DNA of 63,473 bases, filler included, from Folioceros fuciformis (lineage: Eukaryota): the NCBI GenBank assembly GCA_049999805.1. It is 19 parts of 19 records of this genome, joined end to end, with 100 filler letters (N's around TTAATTAATTAA, not from the genome) between each part and the next. Parts side by side here need not be neighbours in the genome. Positions count along the whole stretch, not along the records: positions 52,052 to 60,509 come from JBNGIO010002877.1; 18 more parts are not named here. The stretch is one strand, 5' to 3'. This document shows positions 4,463 to 62,423 of the stretch, in pieces; position 1 is the stretch's first letter, and each line of letters begins with the position of its first letter. The notes below the pieces were generated by a model. That model saw nothing but the letters and a program-made list of their open reading frames with translations. It was not told the origin of the DNA and searched no databases. The position numbers and the translations under genes were made by a program.

Positions 4463-6253
4463 GTGTACTCTTGTACTGGGACTCCTGATTCTGTTGTTGA
4501 TTTTGGTAGGAATTTCTACCTCTACCATCTCTTTGCCCTCTGCCACCTTGGGCTCTACCTCTGCCTCTGCCAAAGTCGAAGGCTTGCTCAAAGCTTTCCT
4601 TAGGCTTAGAGGATGATTCCTTGCCTAGGTTTTTCTCCTCTATGATCAACATAGAGATCAGGTGTGAGAAATTGGGAATGTTTTCCCGAGTCTGTATAGA
4701 AGTCTTGAACTGCTTATAGGCAGGTGTTAACCTGCGAAGCAAACTTTGACCTTGTCGTCATCTTCCACAATGACACCAATGGACGCAAGGGATTCCACTA
4801 TCTCTTTGATCTTTAACGCATACTCATTGATTGATAAGTTCTTCTTCATAATTGTGTTGAAGTCATTCTTCAACTGTAGTTTCCTCGCCTTCGTGTTGGT
4901 CTCATAGAGTTTGACCAACTCATCCCATGCTTCTTTGGGCAACTCTGCATCCTGTATGTGCCCAATCATGGTGTCATGAATGCTGATTGACAGCCAATAC
5001 ATGACCTTCCGAGATCCTTGACTCCAATCCTTCAGCACCTTAATCTACTCCGCTGTTGCATTCCGTTCAAGTACTACAAGGGGTTTTTCATGCTCCCCCT
5101 CAATGTAGTCCCAATAACCCATCCCATAAGAAAGTTTGTAAAACGAAACTTCCAGGCATGGAAGTTGTTTTTTTCCAGCTTCTCTTGCACGATCTGGTTA
5201 ATACTGTCACTGGCCATTCTTGCCACCACTCAAGGTTGACACTCAATCCTTCTTGAGTACTCACACTTGATAAATGTCTGCAAGAAAGAGACTGCTTCTG
5301 ACTGGAGTTTTACTCACAAGACCTTAAGTCTCTTCTTCCTAAGAGCAATCTGGTGCGGAATCACACTGCCTTGCATGAACCAGATTATCTCATGCTCCGT
5401 GTCCTTACAGACTCTTGACGATCTACCCACAAAGCTCCTGTGAGATTTCGTGTCAATTCCTTCCCTGCTGCCAAGCTAGGGTTAGCACACTTTCTTGCAG
5501 CTGCTGAGGCTACTACAGCTGTTGCCTCCACTTGTTAGCCCTTCCACAGAGCTCCGGGGATCAACAGCCCGTTGCCCTTCTCCTCACTTCTTGCACACAC
5601 CGATATGAGAGTTAGCTGCCGCTTGCTACCGATCTCCCTCCAAGCTGCTCCAACTCCTCGTAGCTCCTCCAGCTCCTGGTGTGCACTCTTACTGCCTCTT
5701 GCAGCACCTCCTACACTAATCTTGCACCGCCCTCAGGTGTACCCGCCTGGCTCTCCGGCTCTGGGCTACGCTTGGCAATTTGGCTCTCCGGCTGTGGGCT
5801 ACGCTTGGCAATCTAGCTCTCCGGCTGTGGGCTCCGCTTGGCAATCTGGCTCTCCGGCTCTAGGCTACTCTTGGCAATCTGGCTCTCCGGCTCTAGGCTA
5901 CTCTTGGCAATCTGGCTCTCCGACTCTAGGCTACACTTGGCAATCTGGCTCTCAAGCTCTAATACCATGTCAATAGGATCGACTCCAGTCTATGAGCAAG
6001 TGTAGGAGAGGAGAGAAGAGAGGGTGGTATTGGTGGTCACAACCAAAAACAATACACATTACCACTGTCTTACTATGGAGGTCCGAGGTCTTCATTTAAG
6101 TAGTACATTTAGGGCTACACAACTTCCAAGTTCAATATGGGATAATCTACACTATCCTAAGTTCATTAATAACTAGAACTAGTTTAGTATGAACCCAACC
6201 GGGATAACTAACACCACATGAGTTTAGCTTATATAGAGCTCGATAACTCAACA
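4463..6253 (-). mobile_element. Ty1/copia 5' end: LTR 5968-6253 (TGTTGA...TGACA), PBS 5956-5967, leader, frameshifted gag (~5218-4470)
   Basis: PBS TGGTATTAGAGC; ORFs 4727-5038 and 4407-4742 carry W..L..LYE...RKLQLK, YKQF.TSIQTRE and an RG-rich tail. Confidence 0.88.
5747..5953. repeat. 33-bp tandem repeat, ~6.3 copies (CTGGCTCTCCGGCTCTRGGCTACKCTTGGCAAT), in the copia leader next to the PBS
   Basis: Directly visible; translates as GSPALGYxWQS repeats on the plus strand. Confidence 0.95.
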
Positions 6254-15919: not shown

Positions 15920-18683
15920 NNNNNNNNNNNNNNNNNNNNNNNNNNNNNNNNNNNNNNNNNNNNTTAATTAATTAANNNNNNNNNNNNNNNNNNNNNNNNN
16001 NNNNNNNNNNNNNNNNNNNAAACCTATACCCACTCTTATAACCAAACCCACTATTTCCTGGTCAATTAACCCAATTAGCACAAAGAAAAATAGGAAAAAT
16101 GATCAGAAAATAAAGGAAAATTAGAAAAAATAAGTTGAAAAAGAAAACCAAACCATACCACTATTAACCCTTTTTCAACCAAAACAACCCACTACCCCAA
16201 ACTTTGGAGGTTCACAATAGCATAAGTATATAGCCAGATACTAATCGTCTTGTATCAAGGTCTCCAGCACAGTCGACATCATGCTGTTAATACTGGATAA
16301 TTCATACTTGGTGTATGTTGATAAACTAACCCTGTATTCATAGTGCCCTTGAGATACCAAAATATTCTTTTAACACATGTTCATTGGAGCTATATGCTTT
16401 CTTCTCTTGCCCAAGATTAGAACTCAAATAAATCACATGAGCACAATTGGTTGCTTAAACAAGTGAAAGTCAAAATAGGAATAGTTGCATGTGGAACGGA
16501 AAAGTTTGGTAATCGGTTTAGGAAAGTGTCATAACCCTTTCTTTTTGCTTAGAACAGTTCGAAGGGAGGCATGTGGAAGGTAGGTTTCTGGGCAAGCGTG
16601 CACGGTAGGCAGTGAGCAGTTGGTGAAGGTTTTTATGGATTTTTTTAGTTCTATTTTGGTAGGTTAGGTGTATGGTAATAGGACAAAGTAGTATCGCGTC
16701 AAGATAAGAAGATACCTACGTAGTAGGATGTCTAGCTACATACATAGAGAGACTACCTACATGGGGTAGACGCCTAGTAGGGAGGGTACCTACTAGGTAT
16801 GTCTACTTATAGCATTTAGCCGAAGATACCTACGTACGTAGGGAAGGTACTTGTATGGTAGACACCCACCTACAAAAGGAATTGGTAGGGAGCCTACCTA
16901 CAGCAATGGGGTAGGTAGCCTATCTACAAGAATGGGTGGGAATGGTAGGGAACCTACCTACAAGAGAGGGGGTAGGGAACCTACCTACGAGGGGAGCATT
17001 AGAGAGCCAACCTATGAAGGGGACATTCTTACCCTACATAGGGAAGGAGCCTCAAGTTGAAGAAAGTGGATCCCTTGCCTACTGAACCTATGCCACCTTG
17101 CCTTCACCAAAGCCAAAATGGTTTATCAATTTATGGGTCAAAGGTGAAGGTGAAGGGCTCCAGCAAGCGCCCGCAGGAGTGGAGCTGCAGAGCTGCTTGG
17201 GCCAATAGGGACACATGAATGGGAGAGGGTAGCCTCCCAACCTGGAAGAGCAACGAACAGCGGTGGAAGCCCTGATGAGGAACCACGGGGCTTGGAAGAT
17301 TGCAGGAGAAAGCAAAAAGGAAAGAAGGTTACAGATGCAGGTGGTAGCCGGTCAGCAAGCTTCACTCAGCCATCCGGGCAATGTCAGCAATACCTTATAA
17401 ACAACGTGTCGATAAGGTACTGCTGACATTTGAGACTTGTCTACATTTGTTTTGGGGCACATTTCTGATGTAAGTCTTATCCCATTAGCAAAAGGAGTGG
17501 GGGCAAGTTTGGCATCTGTGAACCTCCAAAGTTTGGGGTAGTGGTTTGTTTTGGTTGAAAAAGGGTTAATAGTGGTATGGTTTGGTTTTCTTTTTCTACT
17601 TCTTTTTCCTAGTTTTTCTTTATTTTTTGATGATTTTTCCTATTTTTCTTTGTGCTAATTAGGTTAATTGACTAGGAAATAGTTGGTTTGGTTATTAGAG
17701 TGGGTACAGGTCTGGTCCCAGACNNNNNNNNNNNNNNNNNNNNNNNNNNNNNNNNNNNNNNNNNNNNTTAATTAATTAANNNNNNNNNNNNNNNNNNNNN
17801 NNNNNNNNNNNNNNNNNNNNNNNGATCACAAAAAGACGAACGAGCCCTTGGAACGTTATCGTTTATGTGCATCGAATGTCAATTCTTGTCCCCGTGAGCT
17901 CCCGTTGCTAATATAGCAAACCCCGACCTGGCGTTAGGTTTCAGGGCAACACCTGGACGCGACATAGTTTTGCTGGGGCAGAGACGATCCAAGGCACACG
18001 GAACCTTACCTCGCTGGCATCTGAGAAGATGGCAAGCACTGGGAGGAAAGGAAAACTTGTGCAGCATCATGTACCGGGTTGGGGCAGGTGTTGGGACGGA
18101 ATCGGGATATCTCGTTACCTCTGGCTCCTGATGATCTCTCCGCTGCAATGTGGATGGACACAAGGTCTCTCATCCTACTAGCATTCCACTGTGCACTGGT
18201 CTGGAGTCTAACACCTGCAAAATGGCTGAGAGAACCGGGCCCACGACCTGAGGAGAGCGAACGAGTTAAGGTAGGATTGAGCGAGATGTACAAGCTGTAA
18301 GACGCTGCAGAGGACCAGGCCTGCCCGGCCACTACGACGCCACATTCTCACCAGTCGCACCACACGGATGCCATCATCCGCGGTGGGATGAGGCGAAGCT
18401 GGCTGCTCCCCTGCTCCGAAGCTTCCGAACGCCCCCACGTGCGTGTAAAATGTGTTGCTTCGACTTCCAGGAAATGTGCCTGAAGCTGGCTCCTCTCCTT
18501 CCCCCCAGAATCTGGCCTGGCGCAGCCCACATGATGCAATATATGTCTCGCACACGGACCATCGGCGGTCGTATTCAGGCTCGTAGCATCACGGAGTGGA
18601 GGCCTAGAGCACGGAGCGAGCCCGGAAGCGCCTTGGATTGCACGGTGACTCGCTGCTCTTGAAAAACAAGAAGCTGTCACATT

Positions 18684-20397
18684 ATGGACTGGATTGATGC
18701 AGTCCTGCTTGTGGTAGCGGGATTGTTGGCCGTTGCCCACATTGCGACTCAAGCACGCAAGTGGTCCAGCAGCGGGGCAAGGAAGTATCGCCTTCCACCA
18801 GGCCCGCCGGCATGGCCACTGGTGGGAAACCTCTCCATTTTCTCCCATCCCCGTCCGCACGCCCGCCTGGAGGAGCTGGCCAACGAGTTTGGTCCGGTCA
18901 TGTCCATCCGCTTGGGATCGAAGCTGGCTGTGGTTGTCTCATCCGCGGATGTGGCCAGGGAGGTGGTGAAAGTGCAGGACAACAATTTCGCATCCCGTCC
19001 CACCTTTACAGCCTTCAATCATCTGGTTTTCCGGGAAGGAACGTGCGGATTTCAACCCCTCGGACCTAAGCACCAATACGTGAGGTAAGCTTGTCAGACG
19101 GTGATCGATGTTCGCTGCAAGACTACAAATTTTGCAACCTGAACCTGCTCTTGCTCTCAGACTGGTGCTCACAATGATGAAATGATAGCCATGGTTCATG
19201 CATTTCACTGACAGGAGGATTATTGCCACAGAGCTGTTGGCTCCCAAGCGAACTCAGCGATTCGAGGAATCCAGACGCCAAGAACTGGATGCTGCCATGA
19301 CATCTGTGCTACACAAGAGTGGGCAAGAGGTCGACATCCACGAACTGGCCATCACTCTGACTATGAACAACATAACCCGGATGTTGATGAACAAGCGCTT
19401 CTGTGAGTTCGAGCATGGGGAACAGATTGGAGGACACTGCACCATGGTGAGCTCCAGACCGCCACCTGCAGTTCTATCGTACTTGGACGCAGTCATGGAC
19501 AAAATCCAATGTGGTAACCCATAGTGCTATGCTCCAGCCTGGAGCATTCTTGGCCAGCTTACAATTCCAGTGATTTGCGTGGGCGCGGAGCCTTAATCTA
19601 TGGTGTGCACTGTGCAGGTCAATGCAAAGGAAGCAGCCGAGTATCGCTGGCTGATCGGTGAGATCAACCGGTTGCTGGGGATCCCAGTGATGGGAGACAG
19701 CATTCCTTTCTTGAGTTTTCTGGACACGTTCACTGTAAGGAGCATGCAGAAGTCCAGGAGCAGGCTGAGCAACTTGCTGTCCCAGATCATCGATAACCAC
19801 AGGCAGCGAATGAGCCAATCCACCACCTCCTCTCCTAATGACTTCCTGGAGGTATTGCTGAAGCTTCCCGGGGAGAAAGGAGTTGACAAAGATCTAGCCA
19901 TGAAAGGAATTTTAACGGTAGGACGACAAACCGAAAGATCACCCGGTCATGACGGTCTTCTTGCCCACGCGAGACAAACAGTGTGTACCCACTCTCAGAT
20001 TGTGTATTTGTCCCGAACGGTGATCGCAGGATTTGGTGCTCGCTGGAGTCGACACATCTGCCATCGCAGCCGAATGGGCTCTGTCAGAACTGCTCAGAAA
20101 CCCGTCCGTGATGCAGAAGGCACAGCAAGAGCTGGACTCCGTTGTCGGGAGGGATCGCCAATTGCAGGAATCAGATCTGGCTAATCTTCCGTACATTCAA
20201 GCTGTTTTGAAGGAGACGTTGCGGTTGCATCCCGTCGTTCCCCTTCTCATCCCACATTACTCCAGGCAAGACTGCACACTTGGGGGCTACGACATTCCTG
20301 CCAATACCATTGTTTTTGTCAGCCTCCTGAACCTTCACAGAAGCCCAGCAGCTTGGGATAGTCCCCTCCAGTTCCGGCCAGATAGATTCATGGAAAG
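18684..20397 (+). CDS. Cytochrome P450, CYP71 clan (A-type), 3'-truncated by contig end; exons 18684-19084, 19215-19446, 19618-19917, 20030-20397
   Basis: N-terminal TM anchor, LPPGPxxWPLVGNL hinge, FASRP, I-helix AGVDTS, ETLR (ExxR), FRPDRF; three GT-AG introns keep the frame and a fourth donor GTATGT lies at 20398; heme motif not in window. Confidence 0.93.
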
Positions 20398-36746: not shown

Positions 36747-39185
36747 TGCTTCGCCTTCTCAATGAAGGAGCTGAAGAGGTGTAATGTGTTGACCTTTAGG
36801 ATCAACCTTACCACCTCGGAGCCCATCTACAGGAGAAGGTACCGTCTCAGCAAGACAAAATGGGACATGGTAGACGCCCGTTGCGGGGAATTGCTGGAAG
36901 CAGGGTTGATCAGGTCCTCTAGCAATGACTATGCTGCTGCCACCGTGATGCCGCCCAAGAAGGATAGCCAAGGGCTATGGACTAAGAAGAGGATGTGTGA
37001 GGACTATCGTCCCATAAATGCAGCAACAGCACAGGATCAGTACCCGATGCCGACCCCTGAAGAAATTTTTGACTGCATTGGGCAGTCAGCCTTCTTCTCC
37101 TCACTTGACCTACGCCAAGGATTCAACCGGGTGCCGGTTGCTGAGGAGGACATCAAGAAGACTGCCTTCCATGGATCTCAGCAGCTGTGGGAGTGGCTGG
37201 TGATGCCTTTTGGATTTAAAAATGCACCAGTCACCTTCTAGAGGACAATGGATCTTGTACTAGCAGGTGCAACATATTTGATGTGCTACATTGATGATGT
37301 CCTTGTGCATAGCGAGGATTTTGAGCAGCACTTGGCACATCTAGAGGATTTGTTCCTTAGGTTGCGGACGGCTGAGCTCACGTGCCACCCCTCCAAATGT
37401 GAGTTTGGGATGAGCATTGTAGCATACTTGGGACACAAGATCGTGCCCAATGGAGTCATGCCTCATGCAATCAAGATCCAGGCCATTCAGCAGGTGAAGG
37501 AGCCCACCAATGTGTCAGCACTACGGGCATTTCTAGGATTGTGCTACTATTACAGGGTGTACATCCAGAATTTCAGCAGGATTGCTAAACCGCTGAACGA
37601 CCTATTGTGCAAGGACGTGGAGTGGCTGTGGGATGAGCATGCTCAACACTCTTTTGACACCTTGAAAGAGCGGCTCAGCACATCACCCATTATGGGTCGT
37701 CCCAATTTTGACAAGCCGTGTGCGCTTCATACAGACTGGAGTAGTCTAGGGCTGGGTGCTGTACTTGCGCAAGAGGATGAGTACGGGAAGGAACGTTTGA
37801 TTGCCTTTACCTCACGGAGCAACAGCCGTGCCGAGGCCAATTACAGCGGCTATGAGGGCGAATGCCTCACCGCTGTTTGGGCAATCTGCCACTTCAGACC
37901 TTACCTCTATGAGCAGCAGTTTACCCTTGTCACTGACCATCAGCCCTTGAAGTGGCTGATGACAAACACAAAGCTCAGCGAAAAACTTGCTTGCTGGGCC
38001 ATAATTTTGCAAGATTACAACTTCCATGTGGAGCATAGGCCAGGGGTGTCACATCAGAATGCGGACGCCCTCTTCAGGAATCTAGATAGCAGCTGTAGGG
38101 ATGCCACGGAGGCTAGGCAGGATGAGGATGATCAGCCACAAGGACAGGCAGATTTAGCTGTAGCTGCCTTGGTGGCCATGACATGCCTTGGACAGCTTCA
38201 GGTTGCAGCAGCTCAACATGTCCCCAGGGACATATGGGAGGACGAGCATACAATTCAGTTTGTGCAAACTGGCCATCTAGGTGAAGATTGGACAGTAGCA
38301 GAATGTGAGCAGGTACAGCAACTTGTTGCTGCCTACTACTGGAGAGATGGGTACCTCATCTAGAGCCGGGCCCATGGTGTGGAACGGCTGGTTCCACCTC
38401 CCAAAGATCGTGCTGATCTCATTCGAAGAGTACATGACAACATGGGGCATTTTGGAGTCAAGAGGACCTACAGCTTGCTCGCCCCTCACTTCCACTGGTT
38501 TGGCATGCATGCACATGTCCGGGAATGTGTCGCTTGTTGTGAGCCATGTAACCGCGTCAAGACATCCTTCACTATGTAGCACTCAGAGCTGCACCCACTC
38601 CCCATCATGGGGCTCTTCTTCAGGTGGTCCTGCGACCTCATAGGAGAGCTGCCCAAGACACCAACCGGTAACGTGTACATCTTGGTGATGATAGAGCACT
38701 TTAGCAAGTGGGTGGAGGCTGTCGAGTTGCCTGACAAGTCATCCAGGAGCACGTCACAGACTTTCTTGCAGAACGTGCTGAGCCGCTTTGGCAGCTACGC
38801 AGAGTGTCTCACTGACCAAGGTTCAGAATTCCGAGGGGAATTCCAAGACCTGTTGGATGTGGCACTAATTGACCACAGGAGGACCAGCAGGGACCACCCT
38901 CAGGCTGACGGGTTGGCTGAGAGGATGGTTCAAACCATCAAAAAAGAGCCTCCACAAGCTCTGTCTGCAGCAGCCGAAGGGGGATTGGGACATCATGCTG
39001 CCTTATATATTGATGGGGTACTGGATGAGCACGCACGCTGCCCTAGCTCATTTCTCACCCTATTTCCTTCTTTTTGGCAGGGAGCCTGTTCCACCTAGCT
39101 CCATTGCTAAACAGATGCAGGTTGTGGTCTCGCTGGATGATCCAGCCACTTGGGCTAGGATGATAGGTGACAGGGCTGCCCTTTT
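36747..39185 (+). pseudogene. Ty3/gypsy pol (RT-RNase H-integrase), truncated by a copia insertion; same family as 57683-60509
   Basis: DYRPIN, LDLRQGF, MPFGFKNAP, YIDD, HTDWS, TDHQPL, H..MGHFG...C..C, TDQGSEF, PQADGLAER. Confidence 0.95.
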
Positions 39186-51784: not shown

Positions 51785-52051
51785 CATCTCATCTGCATCG
51801 GGCTTCTCCTGGATCAAGCCGGTACGATACAACCAGTCAGGAGCAGCTGTATGCTATGGCACAGAAACTAACCGTCTGCCGGTAGTGGTGGGGCGCAAGC
51901 GTTATCAGCAGGTCACTGTCAGCTCCACGTCTGTCACGGACGAGCCGTCACNNNNNNNNNNNNNNNNNNNNNNNNNNNNNNNNNNNNNNNNNNNNTTAAT
52001 TAATTAANNNNNNNNNNNNNNNNNNNNNNNNNNNNNNNNNNNNNNNNNNNN

Positions 52052-52261
52052 GGAAGGACTGAAGCTCGAGAGGCTTTACGCCCACGAGGAACCAAGCACA
52101 AGGAATACCAGAAGACTGTACTTAACACGCTCTCAACAAGTGGGAGTGATGAAGTATAAAAGCGATGTTATGTTATCGACATGTTAAGTAACCTAGGGTT
52201 AGCTATTTAGATAACATATATATCTTAGGTCTATACATGGTTTAAGTTAAATACCTCTTCA
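52052..52261 (+). mobile_element. 3' end of a copia-type element: PPT AAGTGGGAG and candidate 112-bp LTR 52150-52261 (TGAAG...CTTCA)
   Basis: PPT like that at 44586; 5-bp terminal inverted repeat; only one copy seen. Confidence 0.55.
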
Positions 52262-53405
52262 TTAGGGTTACGACTCTTAGCGAAAAGACACATCCCAATT
52301 TTATTTTAACTTCTTTTCTCGATCATCGTTTTATGTTTTTAATAATAAAATCTGCATTATCCTTATAAAATTGTCAATAGCATGGTTTGTGGTGCGCTTC
52401 TCTGCACGGACAGAGCCCACCCACACAATGTTATTCAGAGCTCTTTCTTTCGTAGCCTCGTACTTGTTCGCACCGATACAAAAAACTCATCTAAAGGCAT
52501 CCCGACAACATCATATCTTTGCAGATCCAATGAAAAAAGTCTCCACTGTAGAGCGTCCATCTGTGGTACGATTGACATCGAACAATGTTTGCAGAAATAT
52601 TTCTTGCTCTGTCATGCACATGTTTAGAAATTGGTACCTCAAATCCCAAAAGCCTGGTTTTCCTAAGGATCTAAGACACTGCTTTGCACAACATATTCTG
52701 CGGTAATCAACAGAAATACGGATCTCAGAGCACTTTGCCTCAAGTACAGTTGAGATTTTTTTCTTCCGACTGCGTCAATGATCTCCTAGAGTTTCAATCA
52801 GAGATTTGGACGATGGTTTTAGATTGTATGATCTTCGCACCGTTGTGCCAATTGTCATGCCATCTTCTTCCGGCAACACATTAGCTCCTTCATCTTCAGC
52901 AAGGAAGCGCACCCCGCTTGAAGTTCCTGGTATCCAGCTACCACTCGCATGTACTTCAACATCCACATTAACAACATCAATGTGAAAGATTGTGCCCTTT
53001 GCATTCCGCTTGATAGGTGTTGTTTTCCGAATCACTGGTCTGAAAGGAGATTGTATGCGCAATAGGCTTGTTGAAGTATGGATGTTGTCCAGAAGACTAA
53101 GCCGTACAGGCAAAGCTCGGAAGTCAATGTCGTACCCTTCTGAGTCATCCTCTTCAAGGCATCATGACGTGAACAGAAAACTCATACGTAGACTTTGAAC
53201 TAGAACACATGAATGCCCCTCAGGAATCGAATTCCTCACCTATCTTGAGAGTTGTACTCCACTGTTGTCATTGCCACCATCTCTCGTGAGAAAGAAGCCT
53301 CTCCATCCATGCCAATGTCTCAAGGATTGCTTGCAAATGACCTTCCTTACAAGATGCAAGCTAATGTCACTCAGAGTTTGATTGAAGATATCACAACTCT
53401 GACAT
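52262..53405 (-). pseudogene. Degenerate ORF resembling the Cys-rich N-terminal region of Sola-type (DUF7869-associated) DNA transposases
   Basis: Manual translation: ICCAKQCLRSLGKPGFWDLRYQFLNMCMTEQEIFLQTLF...FFIGSAKI*CCRDAFR*VFCIGANKY; catalytic domain absent because of the LTR at 52261. Confidence 0.55.
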
Positions 53406-53676
53406 AATTAAGCTGCCACTTGAATATGAACCTTTGATCACGATTAGAAATAGCTGTTAGCTGTTTGTTGTTTATAAATGGAGTTTGCAATCGTTGTTGT
53501 GGTTTAAATGCTAGAGACGTAGTTCAAACTCTTATGCTATTTCCAGAAACGGAGTTTAAAATTTAAATTTGACTTCAAATATCATCCTTAAATGCTTGAG
53601 ACATCATTCTCTTCTTCCAAATCAGACTAGTTGTCTTCACTGTCTATCATTCACAAGATCTGAAGCGCAATTGCAG

Positions 53677-55970
53677 ATGGCAGCTGGCCGGCAGAGCAAC
53701 AAGCAACTAAATGCGGCAATGGACACGCAGGCATTGGAGGCACCACCAAGGTTGAAGAAACAACGACAAGCTGTGAAGCTTCAGCTCGCGCTGCGTCTAG
53801 TCCATTCGTGGAAAGAGATAGCCAACGGCGACCTGCGGTTACAATAGGGGATGTTACACCTCATCCACCAGCTGTTGCACTGAGGAAAGACAATTCCGTT
53901 GGGAGCGTCCTTGCCTTGAACAACAAAGCTAGGGAAGTGCAGATTAACCATGTTCCTGTGAATGTGACTCAGTGTGGCAGCACGGGTGGTAGCCAAAACC
54001 ACAACATTCCGAATGCGTACAACTTTATGGAGTGTTTAAAGATGAAGAAGCTTGAAGACGCGTCACTTGCCAAAAGATTCAACATAGACAAAGAGTGGTT
54101 TTTAGAAATAGAAGAGGAGCCAAAAGACTGCACTTTGCCATGGGTGCCATTGGTGGCTCTATGGGTTAACGGTTTCCAAGGCTTGTAGGACGATGAGGCA
54201 GGGAGGCTTGGATGGATTCTGTGTGCATCTATTGACGATGTGGATGAGGAAAGCCATGTCAATTTCATATGCACGGGGCACCCACCAAGTCATATCACCG
54301 ATGATTACGATAGCCACAACCTCATTGTAGTGAATGTCGTGAAAGTTGTGCCAAAGCTCTGCGAACCAATGTGGCTAAAGAACGTTTTTAAAGATTGCTT
54401 GAATTTGGAGGATGTTAGTATATCGTTAATTCAGTCTTGGTTCATGTTTCCAGTGATAGCGTTCGGAAACCCTAAATTGCCCATTGCGTATTTACCGCAA
54501 GGCGGCGAACAGTTTTGTCGGACAGTCTTGCATTGTGTTGTTGAAGCATCGAGAATATGAGGAGAGCGCCAAAGGCATTCAATTCAAGCGGAGTTCGGGC
54601 CCATCACATCTAGGCAAACGAAGAGGGTTCAAAGACCTTTGGAAATGCCGCGCATGCAGCCAAAGCTTTCAGAAGACGACATCCCTGACCCATAACAGCT
54701 AAGCGGTGAGGAGAAGCAAATGGGAGAGTATTCATTCACCGAAGATAGCCTAAATGAAGCAGTAGATGCGGCTCGAGGCTTAGGAGAGGATGAAGATGCT
54801 GCAGCAGATTCGCCCATCGAGATATCCCCTCCACAAAAGAAGTTGAAGACGGCGCGCCGGACTACCGGCGCCCTTGTTCGATGGAAGAGGAAGACCACAA
54901 CCACCTCTCCCTCGAAGATGCGAAAGAGAAACACAAGTTGTTATCATCCACTCACCCACTCTTGTTTGTGTCTCGTGTGTGTGCAAACTGTTACCTTGGG
55001 AAGCCACAGGATTTAACATCTTGCGTAACAATGAAAGTTGTTTCAGTGGCAGCTACTTCACCGCAAAAGAGGAGGAACAGGATGTTAGGTACTAGAGGCG
55101 ATGCAGCTGCTCGGCCTGAGTAGAGATGGAAGGCCCAAGGTCCAATTTGTGAAGAGGAGTCACCATGGGCAGTAGAGACAAACGCAGAAAGGTTGGAGAG
55201 AGTTGCACAAGACAAGGATTATTTGAATGCAGTCCGTAGGAAAGCCCACACAAAACGGATTCGATCAACAACGTTTGATCTTCATGTTGACATCCTTCAT
55301 CTGGCCAGTTACATAATAGCAAATGCGCAGATACGGGAGGTAGACAAAGCATGGATGAAGTGCCTGGTCAAACAGATGCAATCAAGGTCAGTTAAGGAAG
55401 GCATTTTGCCTCTGCTTTGTATGATAGATCCCAAACAGGCTTCAAAAAAAGATGTTTCGCTAGACAAGATCACAACGCAACAATATCATATGGGAGTGCT
55501 TGGAGGAAACCACTGCTTCGCAGCTATGCAGAAGCTGCACTAGATATTCCCAGCTGAAGACAAGGATGAATGGATGGAGGGGCATGTATATGCAGGACTA
55601 ATGGAGGAGGAAATGAGAGTGCTCGCAGTTGATCATAATGTATATGCAGATAGAGAAAGAGAATGGGCTTCATTGAGCAAGGTCGGTATATCCACGACGA
55701 GCTTGATATCTTTTATAGAAAACACGGCTTGGATGAGAAGCCCCTTGTGAAGTGGAAGTTCAACTTGTACAGGTTGCTTGGAATGACGAATGAAGGAGGA
55801 GAGCCTCATGATTGGGTGCAAAAAATGGTAGATGGACAGACCAGGTGTAGTGGGATCCTGTGGGAAAACGTATACAAGATATTCCAAATGTGGGAGAGGA
55901 GTGAGCTCCCTGAACAGATAGTAGGAGGAAGCTCTGGGACAAAGAAACGTGCAAAAGACAAGAGGAAACC
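53677..55970 (+). pseudogene. Large degenerate ORF containing a ParB/Sulfiredoxin-like domain (~55325-55640)
   Basis: QIREVDKAWMKCLVKQM...LPLLCMID...VLGGNHCFAAMQKL*...VYAGLMEEEMRVLAVDHN; read through stops and frameshifts; ends at the repeat at 55971. Confidence 0.65.
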
Positions 55971-57600
55971 TTGTTGTGCTAAACAGCGTCAGCCTTATCA
56001 GTTGGCTGGCAATCAGTAGGATTGTGTGAAAGAGACAGATTATGGGCACTCGCTTTCTAGCCAGCTTGGTGGTCATGAACATGATCGTAAGGCAAATTGG
56101 AAATCAATTAAACAAAATGGTAGCCCTTGCAAGTCTTGATCTAGCATCACACAAAAGCGTCACCACACAGTCTCAGCCTCACAACATCCTCAAGTGATGT
56201 CTAGCAAGAGCGATTGCCTGCATCAACTGGCTGACTCTCAACCATCCATTCACACCCAGCGTGCGCAACACAAATTACTACACATGTCGGTGTCACCACA
56301 GAGGCCCCGAAGGCGTTAATTCTGATCCCAATGGTGATCTCCACAAATAGCGTTGACGATGCTCACTGCCGCCCCCGCAGCTTCGTTCGCGACTCAAGAC
56401 CACGCTATTCACAGCCTGCCCAGGCCAGGCCAGCGCCATGATCTAGGCACAGCGCTACCTCCCCAACCCCTCAGTCCTGAAAATGGCAACTGCAGATTTG
56501 TGTACGCATGGACGTCGACACCCATACACAATCTGCTCGTGCCGGCTCCAATTCATGACTAAACAAGCTCAGATCCGCTTGGATGCCCATGTAGATCACA
56601 AACTGCGTAGTCACATCCGTAGCTCCATGAGCGGGTCTTCCACACAGTTAGCTTAGATTCATGGACGGCCTCAGATCGCAGTCGATGGGGTTTTTCCCAC
56701 CCGACTCATGGCGCTCACACACGCTCCAAGTCGTTGTTGTCTACCAGCCCAACGCTCAGCGCCGCTGTGCGCTGGTGCTGCCCTGATGCCTGTGACGAGG
56801 CACCACAGCGTGCGTGAGCTCTCCTGGTGCTTGAGCTGAGAATCTCAGCTCAACGTCCAACGCTGTCGTTCACTGGTGCCGTTCTGATGCCGCGATGGAG
56901 CACCACGGCCCTTGTGAACTTGCCTGGCCGAATCTTGAGGTTTGTGAGCCAGACCCTAGGCGTGCAATCCCAGCGACTGTGTTTGCGAGTCATAGTAAGT
57001 CCTCCACCTAGCCCTGGTGTGGCACACTCATATTGTCAATCACACATACTCATACCACGATGCGACTCATCAGCGCTTTCACTCTGATTTTTGAGCAGTG
57101 GATTCACAAGCAGTTCCTTGGCCAGCCACCTTGACCGCAGGCTTAGGCTCAATGAGAGGACTTCTAACAACTGTGTGACTGAGCCTAGAAGTCCGACACT
57201 TATCTGTCACGCTTGCCCTTAGCCGTTGCTCACAGTCTTCCTCTTCTCCGTCGGTGCCATGCCGCCCACACTCGTAACCTCCCCACCATTTCGCACAATG
57301 ATGCTTCTGAGCCCTAATCGCGTCACACGTTCCCTACCTAGCTATCCATGATCTACCTAATTATATGATTAGACTAATTACATATATTTGATTAATTAGA
57401 TACCCTAATTAATTAGCATGGCCTGACAGTTGTCGTGCTAAACAACGTCAGCCTGATCAATTGGCTGGCAATCAGCAAGATTGTGTGAACGAGACAGATT
57501 CTGGGCACTCACTTTCTAGCTAGCCTGGTGGTCATGAACGTGACCGTAAGGCAAATTGGAAATCGATCAAACAAAATGGTAGCCCTTGCAAGTCCTGATC
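55971..57600. repeat. Pair of 171-bp direct repeats (55971-56141 and 57430-57600) at the 3' end of the PHD-gypsy element
   Basis: Manual alignment shows about 16 substitutions and no indels; a G-run PPT (minus strand) abuts the 57600 end. Confidence 0.85.
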
Positions 57601-57682
57601 CCCCCCAGTGTGGTGATACCTGGCACCAAAACTGTAGGCAGGCGTCGCGAAGAAGTGAATCGGATCCATTGAGTTTACCTGA

Positions 57683-60509
57683 TCAGTTGTTCCTGTGGTC
57701 TCTAGCTCGGCAGAGGGGGCAATACCATAGGTCCCCGGCACCTCGGTCAGTGGCGGCTGAAGGCAAAATAAATGGAAGCCTCCATGGCAGCCGTCACACA
57801 GCAGCATGAGCTCTAGATCATCAATTTGCCTATACACCTCACATGGGTAATCAGCTGGAGGGATCCAATTTGCTGTAACCAGCGTAGGGTCCAAGTTGGG
57901 TAGATGGCAAGGGGCACAATTCTTCATGTGGTCGGTGGTGACCCTCCCATCTGATCCTTCCAGCAACAGTACTCCATTCCCACACACCTCTCGCACCCGT
58001 AACACATGTTTGCTAGTGCTAGGTTCCAAGGTATCCTGCGTTTGCCGCTATAGGTAGACGTAGTCCCCTGGCTGAAATTTCCTGACCTTGGGATGGAAGC
58101 TCCCACTTCTGGTGTGAGCATACCTGAGCGTATCATGATGCTAGCCTATCCTGAGGTTGGCCATGGCCATTGGAATCACCTGTCTGAATAAGGCTGCACG
58201 TTCTCCAATGGCCTTGGCCCGTGCTGCTGGGTCATCCAATCTCAGCACCTCCTGCATCTGTCGGGCAATGGCCACACGTGGTACTGGCTCTCTCCCAAAT
58301 AGAAGGAAGTAAGGTGAGAAGTTGGCCAGTGATGCGTGCCTGCTCATCCTGTAGCCCATGGCGATGTATGGCAAAGCCAAGTCCCAATCTATCTTGGGCT
58401 TGGTGAGACACAGCTTCCTCACTGCACGTTTGATGGCTTGCACCATCCTCTCGGCCAATCCATCTGCCTGAGGGTGATCACGATTGGTGCGCCGGTGATC
58501 AATGAGCGCAGCATCTAGCAAGTCCTGGAACTCACCCTTGAATTCAGCCCCCTAGTCAATCAAACACTCGGCGCTGCTCCCAAACCGACTAAGCACATTG
58601 TGCAAGAATGCTTGAGCTGTGCTGCGTGATGCCTTGTCTGGCAGCGCCACCAGCTCCACCCACTTTGAAAAGTGTTCAATCATGACCATGATATAAACAT
58701 TTCCATGTGGTGTGCATGGGAATTCCCCAGCCAAGTCACAGGACCACCTGAAGAATAGTCCCATGATAGGCAGTGGCTATAACTCTGAGTGGGGGTTGCT
58801 GAAGGAAGCCTTGACTCTGTCACATTGAGCACACTTGGCTACTTCCTCATGCACCTGTGTGAACATGCCATGCCAGTGGAAATGGGGAAGAAGCAAGCTG
58901 TAGGTGCGCTTCACACCAAAGTGACCTAAGTCTTCATGTACTCTGTGAATCAGTCTTGCACGCTCTTGTGGTGGTGGCACCAGTCGTTCAGTCTCGTTGG
59001 CCAGTCTTCTCAGCAAATAGCCATCCCTCCACTCCTAGCGAGCTGCTCTCTGCTGCACCCTCTCTTGCTGGCGTGCATCCAGGCTGGCATCCATGTTTCC
59101 AGTCTTCACATATTGTAGTGTGACTTCATCACTCGAAACATCCTTGTGTGGTTGGAAACGACTGTTAGTGCAACCTTGTGCCACGCACAGCATAGTCACC
59201 AAAGCTGGAGCATTAGGTGCCTCTTCCATGTCACTGTTTTGGCGAGCATGTCAGTGTTGTCCACACTACTCTGCCCAGGTTGACGTGACACCACATATGC
59301 ATTCTGGTGCTTAGTTCCATGCATGTGAATCACCTCAAACTCATAGTCTTGGAGTATCATGGCCCACCTTGCAAGCTTTCCGCTAAGCTTGGTGTTTGAC
59401 ATCAGCCACTTCAAGGGCTGATGATCTGTCACCAATGTGAACTTTCACCCATATAGGTAAGGCCAAAAATGACAAATTGCCCACACAGCTGCAAGCAACT
59501 CCCCTTCATAGCTGGAGTAGTTTGCTTCTGCCCTGTTGTTGCTTCTTGAGGCATAGGCAATGACCCTCTCTTGACCTTCAGCATCCACTTGTGCTAGCAC
59601 AGCTCCCAACCCCAAAGTGCTCCAGTCTGTATGGAGAACAAATGGCTTGGCAAAGTCAGGCCTGGCCATGACTAACATTTGCATCAGTTTGCTTTTCAAA
59701 CTTTCAAATGCAGCTTGACAATTGTTTGTCTAGTCCCAAGCTGTCTCCTTGCACAATAGATCATTCAGAGGCTTAGCAATGCTACTAAAGGCCTGTACAT
59801 AGACCCTGTAGTAGTTGCACAGTCCTAGGAACGCCCTAAGAGTAGACACATTGGTTGGAGCTTGGATATGCTAGATTGCCTGAGCCTTGGCAGCATGTGG
59901 TATTATACCATTTGGTAGGATCCTGTGACCTAGATAGGCCACTGTATCCATAGCGAATTCACACTTGGCTGGGTGGCACGTTAGCTGGGCCTTTTGCAGC
60001 CTTCAAAACAGGTCCTCTAGATGGATTAAATGAGTGTCAAAGTCTACAATGTGAACCAGCACATCATCTATGTAGCACAGAAGGTGAGGGGCCCCTGCCA
60101 GTACAGTGTCCATGTCCCTTTGGAAGGTTACTAGTGCATTCTTGAACCCAAAAGGCATGACCAGCCACTCCCACAGATGGTGGGCTCCATGAAATGCTGT
60201 CTTGGGTATATCCTCCTCTGCCATTGGCACCTGGTTGAAACCCTGTCGCAGATCCAACATAGAGAAGAATTTGGATTGTCCAATTTTGTCGAACAGCTCT
60301 TCCAGCGTAGGCATAGGATACCTATCAAGTGCTGCTGCTGCATTGATGGGCTGGTAGTCCTCACACATTCGCTTTTCAATCCAAAAAGCCCTGGTTGTCC
60401 TTCTTGGGTGGAAGGACGGTGGCGGCTGTGTAATTAGAGCTAGAAGGCCTGATCAGTCCAGCCCGATACAGCTCTTGGCAGCGTGCTTCCACAATCTCCC
60501 ATTTAGATT
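57683..60509 (-). pseudogene. Ty3/gypsy pol (RT-RNase H-integrase) with a C-terminal PHD finger
   Basis: YIDD, HTDWS, TDHQPL, integrase core, GDYVY/SH3-like region, then CEVYRQ...LLCDGCHGGFHLFCLQPPL.EVP/GDLWYCPLC. Confidence 0.92.
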
Positions 60510-60609
60510 NNNNNNNNNNNNNNNNNNNNNNNNNNNNNNNNNNNNNNNNNNNNTTAATTAATTAANNNNNNNNNNNNNNNNNNNNNNNNNNNNNNNNNNN
60601 NNNNNNNNN

Positions 60610-62106: not shown

Positions 62107-62155
62107 TTGACTCTCTCGCGGGGACGGACCAGGCAAGCGGACAACGATAGTGGGT

Positions 62156-62423
62156 GGAAAACTCTTAACAGTGCTGGCACATCCTTGGAAAACTCTTAAC
62201 AGAGCTGGCACATCCTTCGAAAGCTCTTACCAGCGGTGGCACATCCTTCGAAAACTCTTACCAATGCTGGCACATCCCTCGAAAACTCTTACCAGTGCTA
62301 GCACATGCTTGGAAAACTCTTACCATCGCTGGCACATCCCTAGAAAACTCTTACCAGTGCTGGCACATGCTTCGAAAACTCTTCCAGTGCTGGTACAAGC
62401 TTCGAAAATTCTTACAGAGTGCT
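62156..62423. repeat. 31-bp minisatellite, ~8.7 copies (SGAAAACTCTTACCAGTGCTGGCACATCCTT)
   Basis: Head-to-tail units with no spacers. Confidence 0.95.

What the first reader, a model, noticed from the sequence alone, without database searches (positions are those of the whole stretch)
57683..57843. PHD finger fused to the C-terminus of a Ty3/gypsy integrase
Seen: after the integrase the minus strand encodes C-E-V-Y-x11-C-D-G-C-x4-H-L-F-C-LQPPLTEVP, and after a frameshift at ~57735, GDLWYCPLC-RARDHRNN-stop. This is a C4HC3 PHD pattern with the second Cys changed to Tyr (TGT>TAT); the ORF track hides the last Cys pair. Established: PHD fingers read histone H3 tails, and chromoviruses carry a chromodomain at this position. 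PHD-bearing gypsy elements are uncommon but have precedent (e.g. Chlamydomonas REM1). Inference: an H3K4-state reader steering integration. The sister copy at 36747-39185 is cut before this domain.
Basis: partly seen in the sequence, partly recalled or inferred. Interest (0 to 1): 0.7.

Follow-up and report, generated by a model that had tools for sequence, protein, structure and literature searches.

The report
Decayed gypsy retrotransposon with PHD-tipped integrase
This is a dead copy of a plant jumping gene whose DNA-inserting enzyme ends in a small histone-reading zinc finger, a feature that turns out to be standard for a large, little-described group of such elements in green algae and liverworts rather than a one-off oddity.

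Summary
On the minus strand a Ty3/gypsy pol (RT, RNase H, integrase) runs in the integrase frame into a PHD finger (57843-57710), with a stop at 57685-57683. Pfam scores the part before the frame break at 28.5 bits against a cutoff of 24. This copy is dead: at least ten in-frame stops, two frame breaks, and Tyr in place of the second zinc-binding Cys.

The PHD is a family feature, not a capture. 137 of the 150 nearest protein clusters align into it. 33 of 35 of those and 117 of 120 long relatives carry PF00628 after the integrase. One example is an uninterrupted RT-RNaseH-IN-PHD protein 60-61% identical to this copy. Named relatives come from a liverwort, Klebsormidium and chlorophytes. Other copies in the source sample read Cys at the Tyr codon and carry one extra letter at the frame break.

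The finger resembles solved readers of unmethylated H3K4 (CHD4, KDM5 PHD1, BAZ2, PHF21A, AIRE). I infer that it tethers the integrase to chromatin, as the chromodomain does in chromoviruses; no binding was tested. It is a new member of a known kind, of modest interest.

The window is 19 short contigs joined by spacers, so the "sister copy" lies on a different contig.

The parts
59919..60368 (-). Reverse transcriptase domain (RVT_1). The element is cut by the contig end at 60509, so gag, protease and the 5' LTR are absent.
   Evidence: translation P0003; PF00078 90.7 bits at residues 65-214. In-frame stops appear as X.
59343..59729 (-). RNase H domain of pol
   Evidence: PF17917 127.8 bits (residues 302-406) and PF17919 112.6 bits (278-376) of P0003; 61% identity to P0280 over 385 aa.
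59196..59250 (-). Overlap of the two reading frames. The frame break between RNase H and integrase lies in here.
   Evidence: P0003 (frame ending at 59196) and P0002 (frame starting at 59250) are in different frames. ORF list.
58807..58977 (-). Integrase N-terminal H2C2 zinc-binding domain
   Evidence: PF17921 54.1 bits, residues 92-148 of P0002.
58474..58749 (-). Integrase catalytic core (rve)
   Evidence: PF00665 43.3 bits, residues 168-259 of P0002.
57931..58140 (-). Integrase C-terminal SH3-like (GPY/F-type) region between the core and the PHD
   Evidence: Conserved with all relatives in alignment A1. Weak MLVIN_C match, E=0.017, at residues 391-411. The label SH3-like/GPY-F is by position and recall, not by a significant hit.
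57904..57930 (-). Conserved H-x3-C-x2-C-H motif (HMKNCAPCH) about 20 residues before the PHD. Possibly an extra zinc knuckle.
   Evidence: C445, A446 and P447 are nearly invariant in A1. P433 and C434 are invariant in A3. The zinc-binding role is inference.
57710..57843 (-). PHD finger, C4HC3 pattern, split over two frames in this copy
   Evidence: PF00628 28.5 bits on the first 33 of 47 profile positions; best solved matches are KDM5/Lid PHD1 and BAZ2B.
57832..57834 (-). TAT (Tyr) codon at the place of the second zinc-binding Cys
   Evidence: 12 of 13 aligned relatives have Cys. Most related contigs of the same sample read a Cys codon (table 3, places 57832-57833).
57731..57741 (-). Site of the frame break inside the PHD. 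This copy is one letter shorter than related copies.
   Evidence: two frames. table 4: one extra letter at 57731 (3 contigs of X1, 1 of X2) or at 57735 (1 contig of X2).
57683..57685 (-). TGA stop of pol, 8 codons after the last Cys
   Evidence: Close relatives also end 3-13 residues after the last Cys.
57430..57600 (-). 171-nt stretch starting right after a G-run 75 nt downstream of the stop. It recurs at 55971-56141 at 91% identity. Possibly the start of the 3' LTR; unresolved.
   Evidence: No second LTR can be checked because the contig ends inside RT.

Best explanation
The locus is a decayed, 5'-truncated copy of a Ty3/gypsy-type LTR retrotransposon in a probable land-plant genome. Its nearest named relatives are in a liverwort.

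The pol polyprotein of this lineage ends, after the integrase core and its SH3-like C-terminal region, in a single PHD zinc finger followed within about 10 residues by the stop. The PHD is an inherited, conserved part of the integrase in a large clade. That clade includes elements of Klebsormidium, liverworts and chlorophyte algae, among them relatives that also carry a DNMT.

Proposed mechanism (inferred): in active members the finger binds the N-terminal tail of histone H3 when Lys4 is unmethylated. This tethers the integrase-cDNA complex to nucleosomes away from active promoters. It would be the same strategy as the chromodomain of chromoviruses, with a different reader and a different mark.

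In this copy nothing works: at least ten in-frame stops, two frame breaks and loss of one zinc ligand.
For: SHOWN - architecture:
- The domain order RT, RNase H, H2C2, rve, PHD lies on one strand, with the PHD in the integrase frame.

SHOWN - the PHD is a family feature:
- 137 of the 150 best representatives of 1.84 billion proteins align into the PHD part of the query.
- 33 of 35 scanned carry PF00628 about 210 residues after rve.
- 79 of 120 near-length relatives and 117 of 120 longer relatives carry PF00628.
- P0280 is an uninterrupted RT-RH-IN-PHD protein, 60% identical over the integrase and 61% over RT-RH, ending 5 residues after the PHD.
- Named relatives: Calypogeia fissa at 65-71% and Klebsormidium nitens at about 50%; Haematococcus lacustris; Tetrabaena socialis.

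SHOWN - tree:
- In a FastTree of the integrase region with the PHD left out (89 relatives sampled from 241 eligible, plus the window), the window groups with Calypogeia P0174 and P0280 at 99* support.
- That group sits inside a 24-row set (99*) holding 21 proteins that end right after the PHD, Klebsormidium included.

SHOWN - constraint:
- 279 of 355 relatives keep all eight ligands.
- 122 of the 184 full-pattern proteins among the 251 relatives in hand have the window's own spacing, x2-x11-x2-x4-x2-x14-x2.
- Mean column identity is 0.50 in the PHD, the same as 0.50 in H2C2+core. Non-ligand PHD columns score 0.39, against 0.24 for the linker before the finger (rows were chosen by the ligand pattern).

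SHOWN - other copies: contigs of the same sample carry the unbroken state at both PHD lesions.

SUPPORTS THE INFERRED MARK:
- The 60 best solved relatives of a close relative's finger (81 matches at E<=0.001) include CHD4, WSTF, KDM5/Lid PHD1, ATXR5, KMT2C/D, BAZ2A/B, DPF2/3, KAT6A/B, PHF21A, UHRF1/2 and AIRE. None of the ING/BPTF/TAF3 type is among them. The window's own piece gives the same kind of list.
- A review lists BHC80, AIRE, CHD4 and DPF3 as the unmodified-H3K4 subset. It gives as their marks no aromatic cage, acidic residues, and a hydrophobic residue before the third Cys (PMC3241642, passages). An array study found KDM5A/B PHD1, PHF21A and AIRE to prefer unmethylated K4 (PMC6979384, passages).
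- In the family the residue two before the His is Gly in 247 of 279 and never Trp. The residue before the third Cys is L/I/M/V/F in 274 of 279. The window has Gly and Leu.

PRINCIPLE:
- Fusing a PHD or a chromodomain to an integrase-binding domain redirected retroviral integration (review PMC8149907, passage).
- Chromovirus chromodomains direct integration to heterochromatin (cited in PMC6673714, passage).
Against: - No binding or insertion-site data exist for any member. The mark is guessed from sequence likeness, and PHD specificity is hard to call from sequence. Several of the nearest solved fingers read other or additional features, for example H3R2 (UHRF1) or acyl-K14 (DPF, KAT6). These specificities are recalled, except those in the passages.
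- The placing of the cage Trp two residues before the His is recalled, not taken from a call.
- In 105 of the 184 full-pattern relatives a Trp sits directly before the His. Its role is unknown.
- The copy in the window is dead, so nothing can be said about function at this locus.
- No LTR pair, primer-binding site, gag or protease is visible, because the contig ends inside RT.
- The searches used a query that includes 34 residues of the PHD, which slightly favours PHD-bearing hits.
- 76 of 355 relatives lack the full ligand pattern. Of the 67 such rows looked at (of the 251 relatives then in hand), 11 end before the finger and 21 gave no match to the C-terminal probe. The other 35 reach the region; most of these are cut or decayed inside the finger. 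A few diverge right after the CAPCH motif (P0150, P0187, P0199, P0211, P0224), so PHD-less members cannot be excluded.
- The host is only inferred. Of 5 hits to a P450 fragment on another contig, 4 are land plants at 34-43% identity and 1 is an animal.
Confidence: 0.6

Rival explanations
1. The PHD is a conserved part of the family, but its job is not choice of the insertion site. It might recruit or fend off host chromatin factors at the integrated or incoming copy, acting together with the DNA methyltransferases that many relatives carry. It might also bind a non-histone partner, for example for nuclear import or particle assembly.
For: - 28 of 120 long relatives also encode a C5 DNA methylase, and 3 of 35 do. 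The positions differ: between protease and RT in P0283, between RNase H and integrase in P0008.
- The chlorophyte branch adds a conserved tail of about 300 aa, with weak Tudor-like and methyltransferase-motif hits.
- A review notes that some PHD fingers bind non-histone proteins (abstract of PMC3241642, listing).
Against: - The finger sits at the very end of the integrase, where chromoviruses carry their targeting chromodomain.
- It occurs without any methyltransferase in this element and its closest relatives.
- Its nearest solved relatives are all histone H3 tail readers.
Confidence: 0.25
2. The finger reads trimethylated H3K4 and steers insertions towards active promoters, as the ING2-type finger does when tethered to an integrase cofactor.
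For: - Most characterised PHD fingers read H3K4me3: 18 of 31 H3-binding constructs in PMC6979384 (passage).
- Promoter-directed integration is known for other elements, such as Tf1 (abstract of PMC5741268, listing).
- Many relatives have a Trp next to the His (105 of 184).
Against: - No H3K4me3-type finger (ING, BPTF, TAF3, PHF2/8, PYGO) is among the 60 best solved matches.
- The position where those fingers hold their invariant cage Trp (placing recalled) is Gly in 247 of 279 relatives and never Trp.
- The hydrophobic residue before the third Cys, typical of the unmodified-K4 subset, is present in 274 of 279.
Confidence: 0.1
3. The PHD is a one-off: a host exon captured by this copy, an assembly chimera, or a host PHD gene that happens to abut the insertion.
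For: - Only one copy in the window shows the finger.
- The other related copy is cut before it.
- The window is a patchwork of short contigs.
Against: - Hundreds of independent proteins from many sources carry integrase and PHD in one open frame with the same spacing and the same stop position.
- The junction lies well inside one contig.
- Short contigs from the same sample bridge the region (table 8, records 1 and 2).
Confidence: 0.02

Closest known systems
Chromoviruses (Ty3/gypsy elements with a chromodomain at the integrase C-terminus)
   Same: Same superfamily. A small histone-reader module is appended after the integrase C-terminal region, at the end of pol. The proposed role is tethering integration to a chromatin state (passages in PMC6673714).
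   Different: No PF00385 hit appears at E<=1 in this element. The predicted mark is the unmethylated H3K4 tail rather than H3K9 methylation. One distant relative (P0148) has both a PHD and a chromodomain.
KnitGypsy-Dnmt3 of Klebsormidium nitens (de Mendoza et al. 2018, PMC5890265)
   Same: Klebsormidium integrase-PHD proteins are about 50% identical to this integrase and fall in the same 24-row starred set of the tree. 28 of 120 long relatives carry a DNMT domain. This element therefore most likely belongs to the wider lineage that gave rise to the DNMT-bearing Gypsy elements.
   Different: This element has no DNMT. The paper's main text never uses the word PHD (0 occurrences). Its figures and supplements were not seen, so whether the authors noted the finger is unknown. 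I did not show that the Klebsormidium proteins found here are the published element.
PHD-bearing retrotransposons of Chlamydomonas (Gypsy-7a_cRei; REM1)
   Same: These are Gypsy elements of the green lineage with a PHD finger in the Gag-Pol polyprotein. PHD is called a common accessory domain of Chlamydomonas TEs (passages).
   Different: The figure legend of Gypsy-7a_cRei lists the PHD before INT; here it follows the integrase. REM1's integrase is described as truncated, reversed, and keeping GPY/F plus a chromodomain. The REM1 paper itself is not held.
Cellular PHD fingers that read unmethylated H3K4 (CHD4, KDM5A/B PHD1, BAZ2A/B, WSTF, PHF21A/BHC80, AIRE, DPF3)
   Same: These are the best solved sequence matches, with E from 2e-15 to 3e-7 for a close relative's finger. 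They share the ligand spacing, the hydrophobic residue before the third Cys and the lack of a cage Trp.
   Different: Those are host chromatin regulators. Here the finger is the last domain of a transposon integrase. No histone binding has been measured for it.
Ginger1 DNA transposons (gypsy-integrase-like transposase with C-terminal extra domains)
   Same: A Gypsy-like integrase carries extra C-terminal domains, a PHD in one family, Ginger1-9_HM (passages).
   Different: Those are cut-and-paste DNA transposons with terminal inverted repeats and no RT. The PHD accompanies a Ulp1 protease domain.

Membership tests
Ty3/gypsy (Metaviridae) LTR retrotransposon | pol domain order RT - RNase H - integrase on one strand | tested here: met
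   RVT_1, RT_RNaseH, Integrase_H2C2 and rve lie in that order on the minus strand.
Ty3/gypsy (Metaviridae) LTR retrotransposon | RT and integrase of the gypsy type rather than the copia type | tested here: met
   The RT matches RVT_1, not RVT_2. A profile of 25 relatives has Ty3 Gag-Pol (7q5b) as its best solved match, E=3.4e-32. No tree against reference lineages (REXdb, GyDB) could be made.
Ty3/gypsy (Metaviridae) LTR retrotransposon | Two long terminal repeats with a primer-binding site and a polypurine tract | tested here: inconclusive
   The contig ends inside RT. Only a G-run 75 nt after the stop and a 171-nt repeat (57430-57600 and 55971-56141, 91%) were seen.
Ty3/gypsy (Metaviridae) LTR retrotransposon | gag and aspartic protease upstream of RT | not testable with these tools
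   That part lies beyond the contig end at 60509. A long relative (P0283) has an Asp protease upstream of RT.
Chromovirus | Chromodomain at the integrase C-terminus | tested here: not met
   No PF00385 match at E<=1 in P0001 or P0002. The C-terminus is a PHD finger.
PHD finger (PF00628) | Score above Pfam's gathering cutoff | tested here: met
   28.5 bits against 24 on the piece before the frame break. Close relatives score 42-44 bits over the full profile.
PHD finger (PF00628) | Eight zinc ligands C4HC3 in one reading frame | tested here: not met
   This copy has 7 of 8 (second Cys is Tyr) and the last Cys pair is in another frame. The feature is met in 279 of 355 relatives. At both lesions, contigs of other copies carry the unbroken state.
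Unmodified-H3K4-reading subset of PHD fingers | No aromatic cage; hydrophobic residue before the third Cys; acidic residues near the first Cys pair (criteria from PMC3241642) | tested here: met
   The window has Gly two before the His, Leu before the third Cys, Asp three before the first Cys and Asp-Asp in the first loop. In the family: Gly 247 of 279, Trp 0 of 279, hydrophobic 274 of 279. The exact place of the cage Trp is recalled.
Unmodified-H3K4-reading subset of PHD fingers | Binds the H3 tail, and binding is lost on K4 methylation | not testable with these tools
   This needs peptide or nucleosome binding assays.
DNMT-bearing Gypsy elements (KnitGypsy-Dnmt3 type) | C5 DNA methyltransferase domain inside pol | tested here: not met
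   No PF00145 match in P0002 or P0003. Only about 100 residues separate RNase H from the integrase zinc finger. The part upstream of RT is missing, so a DNMT placed there, as in P0283, cannot be excluded.

The most novel reading that the evidence does not exclude
The copy is a land-plant relic of an ancient, green-lineage-wide Ty3/gypsy clade that has not been set apart as a lineage. Its hallmark would be an integrase ending in a zinc knuckle plus an unmethylated-H3K4-type PHD finger, a parallel to chromoviruses that uses a different reader and mark to pick insertion sites.

One branch ends right after the finger; its named members are Klebsormidium and a liverwort. The other branch adds a conserved Tudor-like plus methyltransferase-like tail of about 300 aa; its named members are chlorophytes. 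DNMT domains were picked up several times in both.
Probability: 0.35. Interest if true: 0.6.

Novelty: new member of a known kind. Interest (0 to 1): 0.33.

Why it matters
How retrotransposons choose where to land decides how much harm they do and how genomes are shaped. Chromodomain targeting by chromoviruses is the textbook plant example.

A second, widespread reader-integrase fusion would be an independent solution to the same problem. This one reaches from chlorophyte algae through Klebsormidium into liverworts and is predicted to read the unmethylated H3K4 tail. It can be tested directly with peptide binding and insertion-site maps. It would also give context to the DNMT-carrying Gypsy elements already described.

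This locus adds little by itself. It is a broken copy, and PHD fingers in green-lineage transposons are already in print.

Tried and rejected
- Reading through the frame break: a code with two four-letter steps was not accepted. The two frames were read separately instead.
- Whole genome of the window: none is held, so copies were sought through protein collections and sequencing runs.
- Earlier notes of this scan: nothing by place, sequence or words.
- REM1 paper: not held.
- Literature searches for an integrase-C-terminal PHD lineage gave only general statements and the Chlamydomonas cases. The hits in PMC3286476 and PMC7602945 concern host PHD genes. The 2026 preprint on adenine methyltransferases in LTR elements does not mention PHD domains.
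- RNA evidence: no RNA holder is listed among the runs.
- Conserved tail of the chlorophyte branch:
  - No trace of it in the window (tblastn, 0 hits).
  - No solved relative at E<=10.
  - Only weak Pfam hints.
  - Only sub-threshold Atlas leads to phage N6 methyltransferases, score 0.84.
  - The structure prediction was interrupted twice and then not accepted, so the fold is unknown.
- ESM Atlas on P0174: it named a PHD-integrase cluster with Mollusca as commonest taxon. This is a lead only and was not used.
- tRNA genes near the element: none.
- Other PHD remnants in the window: none.
- One-off capture and host-exon readings: rejected, see rival explanations.
Full report
WHAT IS IN THE SEQUENCE

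It runs Cys-x2-Tyr-x11-Cys-x2-Cys-x4-His-x2-Cys-LQPPLTE in one frame. One base out of frame it continues GDLWY-Cys-x2-Cys-RARDHRNN-stop. Pfam's PHD model matches the first piece alone at 28.5 bits (cutoff 24; E=1.6e-6), covering profile positions 1-33 of 47.

A single translation of 59250-57741 holds the integrase zinc-binding domain (residues 92-148), the integrase core (168-259) and the PHD (470-502) in one frame, interrupted only by five TAG codons.

STATE OF THIS COPY

- Five in-frame stops lie in the RT-RNase H part.
- One frame break lies between RNase H and integrase, somewhere in 59196-59250.
- Five TAG stops lie in the integrase.
- A second frame break lies inside the PHD.
- A Tyr codon stands where the second zinc ligand belongs.

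The element is also cut inside RT by the end of its contig. The window is not one stretch of genome. Eighteen N44-TTAATTAATTAA-N44 spacers divide it into 19 pieces, and the finding lies on piece 52052-60509. No gag, protease, 5' LTR or primer-binding site can be seen.

It is about 66% identical in protein. It ends at integrase residue 358 (window 39195), just before an unrelated repeat that also occurs at 1681-2357.

IS THE PHD A FAMILY FEATURE?

- A full HMMER scan of 1.84 billion cluster representatives gave 45,783 hits at E<=0.001. Of the best 150, 137 align to query position 494 or beyond, that is, into the PHD. The other 13 stop earlier.
- Of 35 of these scanned with Pfam, 33 carry PF00628 about 210 residues after the integrase core. 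One of the other two ends at the alignment end, and one diverges inside the finger.
- In the 90%-identity collection, 79 of 120 listed near-length relatives carry PF00628. Most of the rest cover less of the query.
- 117 of 120 longer relatives carry it.
- P0280 is an uninterrupted 929-residue protein with RT, RNase H, H2C2, rve and PHD. It is 60% identical to this integrase and 61% to this RT-RNase H, and it ends five residues after the finger.
- In an alignment of 13 relatives, 12 have Cys where the window has Tyr. The close relatives stop 3-13 residues after the last Cys, as the window does at 8.

Other copies in the same sample give direct evidence. Two runs of one sample, probably the source of the assembly and so not independent, hold many short related contigs. 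In X1, 95 were laid: 14 at 99% or more, 13 at 95-99%, 27 at 90-95% and 41 below 90%. At 57833 most of them read the letter that makes a Cys codon (50.8 of 60.6 depth in X1, 3 contigs; 27.6 of 32.7 in X2, 2 contigs). At 57731 three X1 contigs and one X2 contig carry one extra letter, so their frame runs on through the last Cys pair (tables 3 and 4). Another 223 differences were not listed, so I cannot say that any of those copies is intact.

WHO CARRIES IT

Named relatives are:

- the liverwort Calypogeia fissa, 65-71% identity;
- the charophyte Klebsormidium nitens, about 50%;
- the chlorophytes Haematococcus lacustris and Tetrabaena socialis;
- a complete ORF in a protist transcriptome assembly (P0285).

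A P450 fragment on another piece of the window has four land plants among its five hits, and the other pieces carry plant-type copia elements. The host is therefore probably a land plant, perhaps a liverwort. This is inferred only.

A FastTree of the integrase region with the PHD left out used 89 relatives, sampled from 241 that have the finger and 400 residues upstream, plus the window. It places the window with Calypogeia P0174 and P0280 (99*). That group sits inside a 24-row set (99*) holding 21 proteins that end right after the finger, Klebsormidium included. The other 66 rows hold 61 proteins with a long tail after the finger, the chlorophytes included. All rows were chosen for having the finger, so this tree says nothing about gains or losses of the PHD.

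WHAT KIND OF PHD

The finger of the close relative P0174 matches 81 solved sequences at E<=0.001. The best 60 include CHD4, WSTF, KDM5/Lid PHD1, ATXR5, KMT2C/D, BAZ2A/B, DPF2/3, KAT6A/B, PHF21A, UHRF1/2, ORC1B and AIRE. No ING, BPTF, TAF3, PHF2/8 or PYGO finger is among them. The window's own truncated piece gives the same kind of list.

Published passages bear on this:

- A review assigns BHC80, AIRE, CHD4 and DPF3 to the subset that binds the unmodified H3K4 tail. It gives as marks the lack of an aromatic cage, acidic residues, and a hydrophobic residue before the third Cys. It states that K4 methylation abolishes binding (PMC3241642, passages).
- An array study found that KDM5A/B PHD1, PHF21A and AIRE prefer unmethylated K4 (PMC6979384, passages).

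Across 355 relatives, 279 keep all eight ligands. The residue two before the His is Gly in 247 and never Trp. The residue before the third Cys is hydrophobic in 274. The window has Gly and Leu. That the cage Trp of H3K4me3 readers sits two before the His is recalled, not taken from a call.

The finger is as conserved as the catalytic part of the integrase. Mean column identity is 0.50 in both; non-ligand PHD columns score 0.39, and the linker before the finger scores 0.24. This used 120 rows chosen by the ligand pattern.

HOW IT MOST LIKELY WORKS

Shown: a conserved PHD finger is the last domain of the integrase in a large clade. This copy is a wreck.

Inferred: in active members the finger binds H3 tails that lack K4 methylation and so holds the integration complex on nucleosomes away from active promoters.

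The principle has support. Chromovirus chromodomains direct integration to heterochromatin (cited in PMC6673714). A PHD or a chromodomain fused to an integrase-binding domain redirected retroviral integration (review PMC8149907).

I put about 0.95 on the structural and family statements and about 0.55 on the tethering mechanism with this mark. The rivals are a chromatin role unrelated to site choice (0.25), an H3K4me3 reader (0.1) and a one-off capture (0.02).

COMPARISON WITH WHAT IS KNOWN

PHD fingers in green-lineage transposons are in print. The Gypsy-7a_cRei polyprotein has one, listed before the integrase. Craig and co-workers call PHD a common accessory domain in Chlamydomonas TEs. One paper states that retrotransposon-encoded chromodomains and PHDs are widespread.

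The Klebsormidium Gypsy-Dnmt3 elements (PMC5890265) probably belong to the same wider lineage. 28 of 120 long relatives carry a DNMT. That paper's text never mentions a PHD, and I could not see its figures or supplements.

Eight searches found no paper that sets apart an integrase-C-terminal PHD lineage or reports it from bryophytes. Repbase, theses and subscription journals were out of reach.

The element is not a chromovirus, because no chromodomain was found. It lacks a DNMT in the visible part.

VERDICT

The locus itself is a dead, truncated member of a known kind. The wider clade may deserve a proper description.

Noticed in passing
whole window; spacers such as 51952-52051 and 60510-60609: The window is 19 short contigs (1.0-8.5 kb) joined by N44-TTAATTAATTAA-N44 spacers. 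Distances and neighbourhoods across spacers mean nothing. Most pieces carry copia or gypsy fragments.
   Followed up: yes
relatives P0006, P0007, P0009, P0011, P0013, P0014, P0022 and others (not in the window): In the chlorophyte-containing branch, pol goes on for a median of about 300 residues after the PHD. 115 of 119 such tails are mutually homologous. They show a weak Tudor-like hit (E=4e-5 in P0038; E=0.0023) and a methyltransferase motif-I-like stretch (D12/Methyltransf_15, E about 0.01, 2 of 8). No solved relative was found. The window holds no trace of this tail.
   Followed up: partly
57904-57930 (-) and the same place in all relatives: An H-x3-C-x2-C-H motif (…NCAPCH…) about 20 residues before the PHD is nearly invariant across the clade. 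It may be an extra zinc knuckle joining the SH3-like region to the finger.
   Followed up: no
relatives P0283, P0008, P0012, P0037 and others: C5 DNA methylase domains occur in 28 of 120 long relatives at different places in pol: between protease and RT in P0283, between RNase H and integrase in P0008. They occur on both sides of the main split of the tree. This suggests several captures or shuffling.
   Followed up: partly
relative P0148: One Logan-derived relative carries both a PHD (569-615) and a chromodomain (768-824) after its integrase.
   Followed up: no
59250-57741 (-): All five in-frame stops of the integrase part are TAG. Three of them stand where every aligned relative has Gln, as expected from C-to-T decay of CAG. 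Differences between copies are mostly transitions: in X1, C>T 47, G>A 59, A>G 27 and T>C 29 of 213 places.
   Followed up: partly
run X3: Contigs of run X3 (same sample) differ from the window almost only by C>T (44) and G>A (35), out of 99 places. This could be a converted (bisulfite-like) library or heavily deaminated copies.
   Followed up: no
relative P0175: A 475-residue open integrase-PHD protein from a Logan contig, 64% identical, also has Tyr at the second Cys position. This may be coincidence or a sub-lineage trait.
   Followed up: no
57430-57600 and 55971-56141: A 171-nt direct repeat (91%) has copies 1459 nt apart, downstream of pol. The first copy starts right after a G-run 75 nt past the stop. 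It may be the start of the 3' LTR with a rearrangement. De Mendoza 2018 notes DIRS-like repeat structure in the Klebsormidium relatives.
   Followed up: partly
53664-56019 (+): A run of open frames on the plus strand (174, 123, 139 and 121 aa), downstream of the element, has no Pfam match at E<=0.001. It may be another decayed mobile element.
   Followed up: no
18663-20181 (+), another contig: Three open frames match successive parts of cytochrome P450. This is either a gene with introns or a pseudogene. The best hits are land-plant CYPs at 34-43% identity.
   Followed up: partly
62126-62414 and 5714-5977: Tandem arrays with periods of 31 and 33 nt lie on other contigs.
   Followed up: no
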